The position numbers were made by a program. From an uncultured Methanosarcinales archaeon (GTDB taxonomy: Archaea; Nanobdellota; Nanobdellia; Woesearchaeales; GW2011-AR9), in the NCBI GenBank assembly GCA_964343575.1, contig CAYFJV010000001.1, positions 155,402 through 200,704 of the forward strand: a stretch of DNA of 45,303 nt. Reading direction: 5' to 3'. Below are positions 27,001 through 33,000 of the stretch, piece by piece (the stretch's first letter is position 1; each line of letters begins with the position of its first letter).

Positions 27001-30000
27001 GACGAGCAGTTATAGTCATACAACAGTTTTCTTGGCAACTGGAACAAATTCTGGTCAAGGTACTTTTGTCGGGGGTTTAACTTCTTTGGATGTCTGGAAT
27101 CCTCGTCAAGGAGATCATTGGGTTGCGCCAGATTCTCCTTCTGATGTTTTAGAATAATCTTTTTAATTTTCCTTTTTGTTTTTGATTAAATTTTTCTACT
27201 TTAATTTTTTTAAGTTTTAATTGAAATTTTTCTTCACATTTTTTGTGAAATTCTCTTCTGCTACTTTCTATTTTTGATTAAATCTTTTTGATCAAAATCT
27301 TCTTAGAAATCCTTAAAAGAAAAATCATTGGTTTTGGAGTAATTTTGTTGCCCTACTTTCAAATTTTTTAGAAAACCTTGGCCAAATTTTCTCGGAGAAG
27401 CCGGCCTTTTTGATGCAAATGTGGCTAAGTCTGTTGTTTTACGGTTTTTGAGACAAATATGTCATGAAATGAGCTAAAAAACTCCGCATAATATACATTA
27501 GGCGAACCAGTTGGTGGAAAAGAGAGATTTTGGAAGAAAAATTAGTCAAAGTGACCACTTTCTTGCAAATTTGCCCTTTCTCCGTGGATCTCCCCAACAA
27601 GTTCTCGCTTTTTACGGCGCTCCACTTCACTAAAATACGATGCCCCTCCCAATGCGGGCACCAGTCCTGCAATGCCAGACCAAAGAAATCCAAGCATCGC
27701 ATTCATCCTAGTTGGGTCACGAACAAGTTCATTCCCATATCTATCTAATCCTGTTGAAAAAAAAGGTTCGCCGATGTCTGCACCATGTGCTGCTCCAATA
27801 TAGGTTCCAACCCCCATCATTGCAACATAAGCAAGTAGGCAAGCGTTTGCAGCAGCACCTTCTGGTGCCCCCAATTCACCCAATAGGTTGAGGTATCTGG
27901 TCTTTGGCAACTCAGTCACTTTTGCGGGAGTTGAGTCTACAAGGTCTGTAAGATTGGGCCCTTGAGAAGCTCTTTCTTGCCCTCGTTGCTCTAGAATGTT
28001 AGTGATATCAAGTACCCTTCCATTTTTTGGAGCTTGCTCGTCCATGAATTTTTCAGAGGGTGTTTTTTATTTAAAAGTTGTCTCAAAAAAGAGACGAATT
28101 TCCTAAAATTTCATCGAGAGATAAGGGAGTAAATCTGGCGGGCACAGTAACTGGATTCTCTAGTGTGACAGAATCTGCAGACCACACATACATTGAAGTC
28201 TCTAAACCTGGAAGAAAGTTTCCATTATCATAAAAACAGTTAGTTGTCCAAGTTCCGACATCTCCATGATTAACTGCAGTCCCTCCTTCAAAAGCATAAT
28301 GTGCAGTAGTAATAATGAACTCATCTGCTTGAGTATAAGAAAAAGTGGGGCAATTTGCCCATCTCCCTTCTGGATGAGTTATGTTGAGAGAAAGTGTTCC
28401 TTGGCCAGTTTCCACCATACCAACAAAAGTGTCTCCTTCTGGGTGATATTGACATACTTCAATGGAAGTATTTTGGTCACTGTAAGCTTCTTGACACCGC
28501 TTTATTGGCCCCCGTGGGGGAACTTCAACAATACCAACTATTGGTCTTTGATATGTGCTTATTTCTCCTTGACAGGCAGATAAGCTAAAAGAAAGAGTAA
28601 GAGATTTGAGAATATTTTTCATTTCTTTAGGAAAAGAGCAAATTCACTTAAAATTTCCACCTCAATATTGGGGTTTTTTATTGAAAAAAATTTATAAAAA
28701 TAGTAAAAAATGAGGAGAAAATGAGAGAATACCTCCCCACTTTGCTAAGAACAAATGCAGCAAGACTACAAGTACTTCCCTATGTGGCTGCAGGATACCT
28801 TAATGGTAGTATGCAGGAAGAAACAATCCAATGGGTTTTACTAGCTGCAGGCGTTGGTTTAACTGTAATGGCGTTGGACAGCAAGATATATCCTTCAGTA
28901 AGGAACCTTAGAGAAGAAAGAGTAGATTGGAGCACTGGAAGAGTAGAAGGTGCCCGTTATCGCCCCAGTGAAACTCCAACTGCACTTACTTTAGATGAGG
29001 CACTCTGGCCATTTGTGGTGGGCGCAGGAGCAGGTGCTTTTGGATATTTTATGGGAGCATTATGATGATTAAAGTTATTGTCTTTGATTAAAATTTCCCA
29101 TTCTAAATTTATTTGTTCTTATCAATAAGTTTTATTCTCCTAAAACCATAAAAAGAAAGCTCTTTTTGTAAGCTCATGCAGATAGTTGCTCATTTAGAAA
29201 AACCGTCGTTGAAAGCAGAATTTTTAGCTGCAAAATCAGTACCTCATTTACACATTAAAGATTTTTTAGATGAAAAGAGTGCAGCAGAGCTGTTAAAAGT
29301 TGTAGAAAAGCTAGACTTTGAAGAAAAAGAAAGTGATTTGTTTCACTTTTGGCAGAGCAAAAATTTGAAGATTTTGGATGATGAAAAAAACAATCAACTC
29401 TTAAAATTTTTTGATCTAATAAATTCTAGCAAAGTTAAAAACTTTCTTTCCAGCATTTCTGGCTTGAAAATTACAAATGCTGATTTTCATGCAACTAAAT
29501 ATGTGAAAACAAATTATTTGTTGCCTCATGATGATCAGTTAGAAGGGAGAAAAATTGCTTACATTTATTATCTTAGTAATTTGAAAAAAGAAGAAGGAGG
29601 GGCTTTTGAATTCTTTTCTGTTGATGAAAAAAACAAGCCACTTCTCGTCGAGAAAAGTGTACTTCCTGTTGCAAACTCTTTGTTTCTTTTTGAAGTTTCT
29701 GACAAATCTTTTCATCAGGTAAGTGAAGTGTTAAAAGATGCCCAGCGTTATGCACTTGCGGGGTGGTTTTATGGATAATTTACACCCACTTTACTTACAG
29801 GAAGGAGTGCAAAAACAAGTTAGAGAACAGCTTTTTTCACAGGGATTTGTGCAGTTATCCTCGCTATTTTCAGTCTCAGAACTTAGAAAACTAAATAAAA
29901 TTATGCGAACTTCTGGAAAAATAAAGAGATATAATCCAGATAAATTTTCTTTTACAAAAATTTTGTTTAGCGAGGAAGAAAAGAAACTTCTTTTTGATAA

Positions 30001-33000
30001 AATCGGCGATTTGTTGACATGGATTGCTGGAAAAAAAGTTAAGATTTTAGAACTTGAAGGAAGAGAGTTCAAACACCGTGACTACACACTTCTTCACGAC
30101 GAAGAAAGTTTGAAAAATTATGCGAAAAAAGTAGGGAAAAGGCACTTTTTTTGTTTAGAATTAAGTTCTGATTGGCTTGAAGAAAGTGGCGGACAAGATT
30201 ATTTTGTTTTTGATGAAGAAACCTTTATTTTACCAGTTTTAGAAAACAGTTTTTCAGTAGTTCTCGAGGTAGAGAAACATTTTACTAAGTATGTAAATTG
30301 CTTAGCTGATGGTAGAAAAAGAGTTCTTATAATGGGTTTTTTCCATTAAATTTTTCTTCTCGGAGAGTTCGCATAAAACTAAGAATAAAGAGGAACAGTG
30401 CCAGTTTCTAATTCTCCAAGAGATCTTCTAAGACCACTGGTACAAAGACCGCCTTCTCTTTTTGGTAAAACAAGAAGCTCAAGATCCTCTAAACCAGCTC
30501 TTACTTCAGAAACTCTTCTTTGATCATTAAGAAAAAAAGCTTTTATTCCTAAATAATGAAGCAGTGCTTGTCCTGCACTTCTCCTATCTAAAAATACTGC
30601 TCTTTCTTTAGATCCTTGAACTTTTCCTGAAACAAGTTCTTGAAAAAATGCTTCCCCTTCTCGACAGGTTTTTGCAAAGCTTGCGAACCTTTCCATTTGA
30701 GCATTAAAATGAGGGTCTTCTTCCAAAGAGACTATGCTATAGATTATTCCCTCTTCAGGGGGACCGGTCTCTCTGACTCTAGCAATCTGATAGCGTAAAC
30801 CAAGGATTCTTGCACCAAATTCAGCAGTATGTGCTTGTCTAAATTCCTGACTAAGATCTGTTCTTCTTCCAAGAAGAACCAAAGCTTCAAGATAAAGTTT
30901 TTCTGCTCTTAAAAGAGCATCAACTATTGAGGAAGATACCCTTGGATCATCAAGCTTCCCATGATCTTTATAGAAACAGAGACATGCGGTTCTAAGCGTC
31001 TGAGCTTGAGCAAGAGGAAGATCAAAATTATCTGGGAAACGTTCCCTGATCATACCCATTGTTCCAGCACTTTCATCTCTCAAGATACTGAGATAATTTT
31101 TAATTGGGAACTTTTCTTCGCGAGGAGAGTATGAAGGATAAGCTCTTCTAACAAATTCACTAAGTGAGATTAGTCCTCTCGTTGTACTCAATGATAACTG
31201 GCCATATTCCAATCTTATTTTCTTGCTGAAGTGAATTCCTTCTTCGTTTATTCTTCTGGCAGTTTCTTCGTCAAAAAGCTGGAAGTTAACTCCTCCTATT
31301 GATTGGCTTGGAATTAGCATTACATTTTTTTGTTTTATCCTTTTTTTAAAATATTCTCTCTTTTCTTTAACAATAATTGACTTTTACCGATTTTTTACCT
31401 TAGAAGTGGGAAGTGATTAGATTTATATAGTCTCAAGATTATCTGAACTTTATGAGAAGAGGTGGAGCGAGAGATGTTGATCTTTCTGAATTAGAAACCG
31501 AATTAGAACTACGGGGGATGGCTGATAATACCATCAAGTTGTATTTCAAATACAACGCACGTTTTCTCAAATTTGCTGATAAAACTCCAGAGCAAGTCAC
31601 CAAAACTGATGTCAAAAAATTTCTTGCCAGCCTTGTGAAGAAAAAAACAGCGCCAAGAACCATTAACATGGTACGCTCGGCGCTCCTCTTTTATTACAAC
31701 GAAGTTTTGGGTAAGGATTTTGTAGCAGTAAAGATTCCAAAAGTTAAGCGCTCGCTTCCAGTTTTCTTAAGTAAGGAAGAAATAAGTCATTTGATTGTGC
31801 AAGCAGGAACAGCAAAGAGTCAGCTCATCATTAAGTTTCTCTACAGTAGCGGTTTGCGCGTCTCTGAGCTTTGTTCACTTCGCATAGAGGATCTTGAGCT
31901 TAGCGATAGGAAAGGCTTTGTACGTGATGGGAAAGGGGGTAAGGATCGCTTATTTTTCATCTCTGAAGGCTTGTCTACAGAATTGGCTGCTTTTTTGGGA
32001 CAGCTTAAGCAAGGTTATGTCTTTCCAAACCATTATGGTGAGCGTATGACTGAGCGTAATGTGCAAAAGATCATTAGTCGTGCAGGCAAGAAAGCAGGAA
32101 TTATGAAACAAGTAACCCCCCATAAACTTCGTCATTCTTTTGCTACGCATTTACATGATTCTGGAACCTCTATTCGTACTATTCAGGAATTGCTTGGTCA
32201 TGCTAATCTACAAACCACGGAGATTTATACGCATGTTTCGCAGCAGCGGCTTAGAAATGTGAAAAATCCTTTAGAGGATATTTAAACAAACAGAGTCCAA
32301 ATAAATGGTTTCTCTCCATATAAAAAGACGAATTAGACAAATTTATCTTCAAAGTCAGCCATATGTTTATAAAGACTGTCCAATCTAGAGACATTGTGGT
32401 ATACCAAAGGTATGAAACGCATTTAGCCAAGCTGTTAGGTATGTTTGTTGATAAGTATAGGGACGATCTTGTAACGGAGCTAGGCGGTGCTTATTACAAT
32501 AGAGTAGTATTTCCCAAGTTGGTTCGTGGAGCACTTGAAGAGGGATTAGCTTATTTAGGATTGGATGAAGAAGAAGAAGACCCCTTAAGAGTATATCTTT
32601 CTAGAAGAATAGTTGAGGCAGGTCATGATAGAGAAGCAGCGCAAGAAGTTGTTGGTGTTTTTTGTGGTACCTTGGAATCATTTTTAAGAGAGTTAGGAGA
32701 TAGTCAACGAAAAGGGATACCAGATGCTGATGAATTAAGAGCAGCTTATTCTACTGAGAGAAATGTTACAAAACTCGCAAAGCAATATGGAGTATCAAGA
32801 CCAACGATATATCGCTGGCTTAGAAGACATAAAATTAGTACTTAAATTTTAGAAAAAAGTCTCTAAGGTTAAATTAACCACATTCTCTTTTGCTTGTTTT
32901 TCTTTGAAGAGTGGATCAAGTTGCACAAGAATTTGTTTATTCACATAAGAACGGATAATAGGAATTCCTTTTTGAGAAAGAGAAGAGATGTATTCTTTGA

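What a model noticed while it worked through the whole genome (the two positions that open the first line are those of the whole stretch)
29176..30349. Two-gene OGFOD1/Tpa1-type ribosomal prolyl hydroxylase in an archaeon
Two overlapping genes, g00190 and g00191, encode the catalytic 2OG/Fe(II) oxygenase domain and the non-catalytic C-terminal domain of the eukaryotic OGFOD1/Tpa1/Ofd1 enzyme as separate proteins that are predicted to bind each other. I read them as a heterodimeric, oxygen-dependent prolyl hydroxylase of ribosomal protein uS12 (eukaryotic RPS23), whose target motif QPNSA is present in g00487. New would be an archaeal counterpart, in unfused form, of an enzyme treated as eukaryotic, giving a simple system for studying ribosome hydroxylation and a clue to the origin of the fused eukaryotic protein.
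Evidence so far: g00190 (200 aa): 37-39% identical to vertebrate OGFOD1 residues 52-240 (Swiss-Prot, call 118); phmmer vs PDB: human OGFOD1 4nhx_A E 1.7e-28 (query 24-200 = 81-259), yeast Tpa1 E 2e-10; the HxD...H iron triad is kept (PHDD, FHQVSEV). g00191 (203 aa): weak Pfam Ofd1_CTDD (E 5.6e-6, below cut-off; call 46), nothing by sequence in PDB, but AlphaFold2 model (6-row alignment, pLDDT 74, pTM 0.74; call 132) matches best human OGFOD1 (4nhy_A E 2.5e-9, TMq 0.64), Tpa1 (3mgu, TMq 0.66) and the isolated C-terminal domain of S. pombe Ofd1 (6e0t, TMq 0.66, TMt 0.56). The genes overlap by 41 nt (185139-185179). In all 5 relatives whose locus was fetched (of 6 with a g00191 homologue) the g00190 homologue l [...]
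(Added by a program. Inside this text positions count along the whole contig: contig position 155,402 is position 1 of the stretch shown here. "Call 12" and the like, gene names such as g00115 and contig names such as C1 are that model's own, and its searches are not shown. The text may have been shortened before it was handed on; [...] marks where a part breaks off. The agent that wrote the report below was given it as the finding of a first reader that could run no searches.)

Follow-up and report, generated by a model that had tools for sequence, protein, structure and literature searches.

The report
Two-gene archaeal OGFOD1-type prolyl hydroxylase
A tiny archaeon encodes, as two overlapping genes, the active and inactive halves of the oxygen-using enzyme that modifies the ribosome's decoding centre in yeast and humans; such pairs occur in about a quarter of its relatives and mostly avoid those equipped for oxygen-free life, but the activity is untested.

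Summary
Real. 29176-29778 encodes an OGFOD1/Tpa1-type catalytic domain (human OGFOD1 E 1.7e-28; iron triad kept; 9 of 10 published substrate-groove residues identical). The partner is OGFOD1's non-catalytic domain (profile E 7.5e-24; fold E 3e-10). Correction: it most likely starts at 29771 (192 aa, 8-nt overlap), not 29738. The pair recurs in 93 of 95 archaeal loci, never fused (2 misses at contig ends); the domain occurs in 57 of 251 phylum genomes. A modelled heterodimer passes (0.80, best control 0.00), possibly from memory of solved fused enzymes. New here: carriers almost lack anaerobic ribonucleotide reductase (2/57 vs 51/194), and paralogue rooting favours a root in or beside the archaeal genes without rejecting a eukaryotic one. 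uS12 as substrate is inferred; its motif is the same in non-carriers. Novelty is limited: a 2015 paper calls the family eukaryote-only, but a 2026 supplement tables an Asgard OGFOD1 match, and this scan noted the split pair on at least 8 other genomes. Verdict: new variant of a known kind.

The parts
29176..29778 (+). Gene 1: catalytic 2OG/Fe(II) oxygenase, orthologue of the OGFOD1/Tpa1 N-terminal domain (200 aa). Iron ligands H118, D120, H180; 2OG residues Y132, R191; groove K51, L55, F56, Q60, D103, L115, D119, L122, R125, W197
   Evidence: residue roles from PMC4396695
29771..30349 (+). Gene 2: non-catalytic jelly-roll paralogue, orthologue of the OGFOD1/Ofd1 C-terminal domain (192 aa from the probable start; the ORF is open from 29738). 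Distal iron His replaced (F-T-K-Y-V-N)
29760..29778 (+). Junction GGGGTGGTTTTATGGATAA: the G-W codons of gene 1 give a GGGTGG Shine-Dalgarno-like stretch (inference), followed by the gene 2 ATG inside the Y-G codons and gene 1's TAA; probable translational coupling

Best explanation
The two genes form a translationally coupled operon for a heterodimeric OGFOD1-type prolyl 3-hydroxylase. Gene 1 binds Fe(II) and 2-oxoglutarate and uses O2 to hydroxylate the proline of the EAKQPNS loop of newly made, unassembled uS12. Gene 2 is an inactive duplicate that packs against gene 1's minor beta-sheet and beta4-beta5 hairpin, bracing the substrate groove as the fused C-terminal domain does in eukaryotes. 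It is an accessory modification kept by lineages exposed to oxygen, often lost and sometimes moved between lineages. Shown here: orthology, gene layout, residue conservation, distribution. Modelled: binding. Inferred: catalysis, substrate, effect on decoding.
For: Gene 1 profile: human OGFOD1 E 3.4e-58, best non-OGFOD1/Tpa1 structure 1.5e-8. Nine of ten groove residues named in PMC4396695 are identical in the window protein and Y96 is F. In 119 homologues found without a motif pattern: H155, D156, D157, H218, R162, R230, W236 and the P3H-diagnostic L152 119/119, L95 118, D140 113, Q100 111, K91 108. The gene 2 consensus follows the eukaryotic C-terminal consensus along its length, with the same loss of ligands; its model (pLDDT 91.9) matches Ofd1-CTD, OGFOD1 and Tpa1 in ranks 1-9. 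Pairing in 93 of 95 loci, no third conserved neighbour. Complex score 0.80, best of 3 controls 0.00; the mark was reached by 116 of 157 solved and 2 of 215 mismatched pairs; runs agree in 100% of contacts, partner pLDDT at least 86. The predicted interface includes gene 2's Y105, Y174, N176, among its most conserved residues. The genome's uS12 matches 16 of 20 residues of the human substrate peptide printed in PMC4396695. Oxygen: class III reductase NrdD in 2/57 carriers vs 51/194 non-carriers (Fisher 7e-5; within ten families p about 0.004); class I beta subunit 10/57 vs 9/194 (p 0.003). Glutamate dehydrogenase, a possible 2OG source, is in this genome.
Against: No activity, expression or modification was measured. 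The uS12 loop is essentially the same in carriers and non-carriers, so it cannot single out the substrate. The window's uS12 has Ser where the S. pombe Ofd1-binding motif needs Pro; Pro is in only 6 of 15 carriers of this family vs 1 of 19 non-carriers (p 0.03, idea formed on part of the same data; 7/36 vs 2/45 overall, p 0.07). No genomic link to ribosomal genes among recurring neighbours. The complex pass may reflect memory of solved fused enzymes. Canonical SOD (23/57 vs 79/194), glutamate dehydrogenase (39/57 vs 117/194) and fatty-acid hydroxylase (3/57 vs 3/194) show no significant association. Genomes are kin, so the p-values overstate. About three quarters of the phylum sample lacks it, so it is dispensable.
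Confidence: 0.65

Rival explanations
1. Same active two-subunit oxygenase, but the physiological substrate is not uS12 (another basic protein or peptide, a host or scavenged protein, or 2OG/O2 turnover as oxygen protection).
For: Patchy presence (57 of 251) is odd for a decoding-centre modification; uS12 does not covary at the target loop; a peroxiredoxin is nearby in 3 loci and peroxiredoxin plus SOD lie directly upstream in L045; a divergent SOD type is enriched in carriers, 15/57 vs 14/194; Y96 is F in 112 of 119 homologues.
Against: The groove and the second domain are conserved as strictly as in eukaryotes, where Rps23 is described as the only known Ofd1 substrate (PMC5690285); the archaeal loop is nearly the human substrate peptide.
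Confidence: 0.25
2. Gene 1 works alone; gene 2 is a co-inherited inactive duplicate or an independent regulator that does not form a stable complex.
For: Gene 2 diverges faster (median identity 27% vs 43% among archaea); in L043, L045 and L065 the genes are 0.4-1 kb apart; binding is only modelled.
Against: Gene 2 is kept in every locus long enough to show it; its conserved residues fall in the predicted interface and match the eukaryotic domain.
Confidence: 0.08
3. One fused protein is made by programmed frameshifting, or the split is an assembly error.
For: Gene 2 is in the +1 frame relative to gene 1 in most loci.
Against: A start codon is kept at the junction (68 of 90 at one position, others at different offsets and frames); gaps of 69 nt to 1 kb occur; the eukaryotic linker of about 30 residues has no counterpart.
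Confidence: 0.02

Closest known systems
Human OGFOD1 (PDB 4NHX/4NHY), uS12/RPS23 Pro62 trans-3-prolyl hydroxylase
   Same: Both domains in the same order; HxD...H triad, 2OG Arg/Tyr, P3H-type Leu152, groove residues; inactive second domain; predicted packing through the minor sheet and beta4-beta5 hairpin.
   Different: Two polypeptides of 200 and 192 aa instead of one of 542; no proline-rich linker, no acidic loop; Y96 is F; the RxS serine is Ala here; activity untested.
S. cerevisiae Tpa1 and S. pombe Ofd1 (uS12 3,4-dihydroxylases; Ofd1 also controls Sre1 with Nro1)
   Same: Sequence and fold matches to both domains.
   Different: More distant than OGFOD1; lacks Tpa1's long insertions; no Nro1 match in 5 genomes, but that search rang in no control and shows nothing; mono- vs di-hydroxylation unknown.
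Asgard (Heimdallarchaeia) protein tabled as an OGFOD1-like 'iESP' in PMC12962969, Supplementary Data S3
   Same: An archaeal protein of about 225 aa whose best structural match is Xenopus OGFOD1.
   Different: One table row, no mention in the main text; no partner gene, operon, DPANN distribution or function seen there.
Single-domain prokaryotic 2OG oxygenases (Pseudomonas PPHD, YhhC NF041706, plasmid PF13661-like proteins)
   Same: Same fold and iron triad.
   Different: Far weaker: PPHD E 2e-3, YhhC 50.6 bits against a cut-off of 150, plasmid hits about 25% identical; no inactive partner known.

Membership tests
OGFOD1/Tpa1/Ofd1 uS12 prolyl hydroxylases | Catalytic DSBH domain with HxD...H triad and 2OG-binding Arg/Tyr | tested here: met
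   H118, D120, H180, Y132, R191 align to H155, D157, H218, Y169, R230
OGFOD1/Tpa1/Ofd1 uS12 prolyl hydroxylases | Substrate-groove residues, including Leu (not Tyr) at the P3H-diagnostic position and the short beta4-beta5 hairpin | tested here: met
   9 of 10 identical, Y96 to F; L152 in 119/119 homologues
OGFOD1/Tpa1/Ofd1 uS12 prolyl hydroxylases | Second, metal-free DSBH domain (Ofd1_CTDD) | tested here: met
   Single sequence is under the Pfam cut-off (26.4 vs 27 bits), but profile E 7.5e-24, fold E 3.2e-10 and tree grouping with eukaryotic CTDs
OGFOD1/Tpa1/Ofd1 uS12 prolyl hydroxylases | Both domains in one polypeptide | tested here: not met
   Separate ORFs here and in all archaeal loci that show both; hence filed as a variant, not a plain member
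OGFOD1/Tpa1/Ofd1 uS12 prolyl hydroxylases | The two domains pack together | tested here: inconclusive
   Model passes (0.80 vs 0.00) but like complexes are solved
OGFOD1/Tpa1/Ofd1 uS12 prolyl hydroxylases | Hydroxylates uS12 Pro62/64 | not testable with these tools
   Target loop present but equally present in non-carriers
HIF-PHD/PPHD/collagen-type prolyl 4-hydroxylases | Conserved Tyr at the OGFOD1 Leu152 position | tested here: not met
   Leu in the window and in 119/119 homologues
YhhC cyclophane-peptide oxygenase (NF041706) | Score over the equivalog cut-off | tested here: not met
   50.6 vs 150 bits

The most novel reading that the evidence does not exclude
The two-gene operon is the ancestral state: a tandem duplication in oxygen-exposed archaea gave an active and an inactive subunit that hydroxylate uS12, and eukaryotic OGFOD1/Tpa1 arose by their fusion before the last eukaryotic common ancestor. 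Decoding-centre proline hydroxylation would then be an archaeal invention that still marks oxygen-exposed DPANN lineages.
Probability: 0.35. Interest if true: 0.8.

Novelty: new variant of a known kind. Interest (0 to 1): 0.55.

Why it matters
PMC4396695 states that the OGFOD1 subfamily is found only in eukaryotes and arose by duplication from a single-domain enzyme; the role of its inactive domain is open. A natural two-subunit form lets each half be tested alone, shows the arrangement expected between duplication and fusion, and offers a genomic marker of oxygen exposure in DPANN archaea usually treated as fermentative anaerobes (own knowledge). If uS12 is the substrate, it would be a ribosomal-protein hydroxylation in archaea, for which my searches found no report.

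Tried and rejected
Viral origin: no relative in IMG/VR with three queries (the one hit is an unrelated 21-residue match); phage and plasmid collections give only weak hits. Bacterial carriers: of four bacterial-labelled records, two lie in genomes with archaeal-type uS12 and two in genomes with bacterial uS12; the contig of one of the latter carries the same DNA ligase and neighbour genes as archaeal loci, so probably misbinned; the other contig was fetched but not analysed beyond; 0 of 150 other genomes of that bacterial phylum match. Fused prokaryotic forms: none in 95 genome loci; in 63 metagenome loci the fused ones are intron-broken or single long ORFs whose taxonomy I did not establish, and four (L154, L155, L160, L161) are split; compact fused proteins P0150, P0156, P0167, P0280 are unnamed, group with eukaryotes and their context was not seen. 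A mixed alignment meant as a two-domain query failed because gene 2 aligned to the catalytic domain. Free paralogue trees were suboptimal: constrained trees scored 34 log units higher, four AU tests did not finish, and the careful mixture-model search did not finish; I replaced them with a fixed-topology root scan. Monophyly of the family's copies: p-AU 0.053, inconclusive. Column scan of uS12 for carrier-specific residues: nothing beyond chance given 76-282 tests. Promoter/terminator scan uninformative. No RNA holder listed. Nro1 search without a positive control. The second 2026 table mentioned in an earlier scan note was not found in four other papers' supplements (some files unreadable).
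Full report
Observation. The window has two + strand ORFs, 29176-29778 (200 aa) and 29738-30349, each single-copy in the 1.21-Mb genome. 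Gene 1 passes Pfam 2OG-FeII_Oxy_4 (E 1.4e-26); gene 2 matches Ofd1_CTDD just under cut-off. Against solved structures gene 1 finds only human OGFOD1 (E 1.7e-28) and yeast Tpa1 (E 2e-10); gene 2 alone finds no relative. The host is an archaeon whose relatives carrying the gene are mostly labelled Woesearchaeota, Pacearchaeota or Nanoarchaeota.

Gene 2 and its start. A profile of 16 gene 2 homologues hits human OGFOD1 at E 7.5e-24, best in the C-terminal domain, and the isolated S. pombe Ofd1 C-terminal domain at 6.4e-7. The consensus of 90 archaeal and 137 eukaryotic second domains agrees along the length, including the replaced distal histidine. An AlphaFold2 model from residue M12 on (pLDDT 91.9, pTM 0.87) has Ofd1-CTD, OGFOD1 and Tpa1 as ranks 1-9 (E 3e-10 to 5e-9), with other oxygenases close behind at 7e-9, so the sequence profile is the sharper test. 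In 68 of 90 loci an ATG lies 10 nt after the start of gene 1's last G-W codons; here that is 29771. The likely overlap is 8 nt and the protein 192 aa. Translational coupling is inferred.

Conservation of the layout. I examined 95 loci: 15 from 41 related genomes and the best 80 of 120 from a motif-limited scan of GTDB species genomes; four are duplicates. 93 have gene 2 downstream on the same strand; the other two end 49 and 95 nt after gene 1; none is fused; three have 0.4-1 kb between the genes. No third gene recurs in more than 14 of 91 loci. The catalytic domain is in 57 of 251 high-quality genomes of the phylum, across many families and outside the window's order; I did not check gene 2 in all 57. 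One same-genus copy (L002) has a stop after the distal histidine and an apparent frameshift at the end. Bacterial labels are explained by archaeal uS12 in two genomes and probable misbinning in a third; 0 of 150 other genomes of that bacterial phylum match. The family is wider than DPANN: the ESM Atlas lists 191-aa clusters mostly from Thermoplasmatota (few members have taxa), matching unnamed marine proteins such as P0119, whose neighbours I could not fetch.

Active site and substrate. PMC4396695 (parts 1-4 of 7 read, main text and methods) names the iron triad, the 2OG residues and ten groove residues. Nine are identical in the window protein, Y96 is F. They hold in 119 homologues found without a motif pattern and in 149 presumed eukaryotic sequences. 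Leu152, which that paper contrasts with the Tyr of prolyl 4-hydroxylases, is in 119 of 119. The genome's uS12 (L096) reads VLEKVQIEAKQPNSAMRKCA, 16 of 20 identical to the human assay peptide. But 34 of 36 carriers and 40 of 45 non-carriers share EAKQPNSAMRK; three further genomes missed by the regex have QPCSG, two carriers and one non-carrier. PMC5690285 (passages and sections 6-7) shows Ofd1 binding unassembled Rps23 through an N-terminal basic-Pro-x-Gly-Leu motif. Archaeal uS12 has K-x-x-G-L there; the Pro is in 6 of 15 carriers and 1 of 19 non-carriers of the window's family (p 0.03, partly post hoc) and is Ser in the window's genome. This is a hint only.

Complex. The pair scored 0.80, best of three controls 0.00 (mark reached by 116 of 157 solved and 2 of 215 mismatched pairs; runs agree in 100% of contacts; partner pLDDT at least 86). 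Fused relatives are solved, so the pass may be memory. The interface uses gene 1 residues 54-57, 111-118, 179-186, in line with the published packing, and gene 2's Y105, Y174 and N176, which are 92-98% conserved.

Oxygen. On the same 251 genomes, the oxygen-sensitive class III reductase NrdD is in 2 of 57 carriers and 51 of 194 others (p 7e-5); in the ten families with both classes and known size no carrier has it (p about 0.004); the two exceptions also have class I. The class I beta subunit is in 10/57 vs 9/194. Canonical SOD, glutamate dehydrogenase and fatty-acid hydroxylase show no significant association; a divergent SOD near the detection limit does (15/57 vs 14/194). Genomes are related and absence may be incompleteness. 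Unpublished genomes enter these counts as non-carriers: G263 (SOD) and G264 (NrdD, glutamate dehydrogenase); one row each. The window's genome has SOD, glutamate dehydrogenase and a fatty-acid hydroxylase, and neither reductase marker.

Origin. In a 236-row catalytic-domain tree, 137 presumed eukaryotic and 99 archaeal rows are split by one branch (98); a two-domain tree of 20+20 gives 99.7/100. The two domains are paralogues, so each can root the other. Of 77 root positions the best 17 lie inside the archaeal genes or between the groups (between: 0.9 log units from best, p-AU 0.64); the best eukaryotic position is 9.1 lower, and 7 of 38 eukaryotic positions are not rejected at 0.05 (LG+F+G4, 154 columns, fixed topology). 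Transfer from a living eukaryotic lineage is disfavoured, not excluded; transfer from a stem eukaryote followed by fission cannot be told from archaeal origin and fusion. The window's pair is 32% GC in a 39.6% genome (lowest 0.1% of windows; pairs elsewhere are about 2 points below their flanks) and lies outside the clade holding 10 of 12 same-family copies, which suggests lateral movement among these archaea.

What is known. PMC4396695 says the subfamily is found only in eukaryotes. PMC4682802 and PMC8153317 (passages) describe it in eukaryotes only. Ten searches (listings) found no paper describing an archaeal or two-gene form. However, Supplementary Data S3 of PMC12962969 lists a Heimdallarchaeia protein as an OGFOD1-like iESP (nothing in the main text; no second row). 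Supplements of PMC13734099, PMC12872458 and PMC13468126 had no match; those of PMC13607799 were mostly unreadable, and unread files may bear on novelty. Earlier notes of this scan report the same split pair on at least 8 other genomes, one Asgard and one marine; one is marked as in print and mentions a second table that I could not find.

Verdict. A real, conserved, two-subunit variant of OGFOD1 that most likely hydroxylates uS12 in oxygen-exposed archaea (0.65). It fails the single-polypeptide criterion and its activity is untested. Archaeal homology is already tabled; the split layout, DPANN range and oxygen association I did not find in print. Interest 0.55.

Noticed in passing
window 35848-36657 (+): Fatty-acid hydroxylase family gene (PF04116), another O2-dependent enzyme; found in only 6 of 251 phylum genomes.
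   Followed up: partly
window 42780-43019 (-): Canonical Fe/Mn superoxide dismutase, 12 kb from the pair.
   Followed up: partly
window 31452-32285 (+): Xer-type tyrosine recombinase 1.1 kb downstream of the low-GC pair, with several genes of no known family around it; may be the housekeeping Xer or mark an insertion region.
   Followed up: no
L002:1483-2070: Same-genus copy of gene 1 has TAA just after the distal His and an apparent frameshift near the end, while gene 2 is intact: pseudogene or assembly error.
   Followed up: partly
L223, L224, L225 (uS12 genes): The usually invariant decoding loop reads QPCSG instead of QPNSA in three genomes of the family, two of them carriers.
   Followed up: no
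L045:1267-2446: Peroxiredoxin and a SOD-like gene lie directly upstream of gene 1; a divergent SOD type is enriched in carriers.
   Followed up: partly
L196 / L017 and L018: Two genome bins with bacterial uS12 hold the pair; the contig examined looks woesearchaeal, so probably misbinned.
   Followed up: partly
proteins P0107, P0108, P0110, P0111, P0114, P0115, P0119: A distinct 191-aa marine subfamily of gene 1, probably Thermoplasmatota, in which the Q100-equivalent is changed to A or S.
   Followed up: partly
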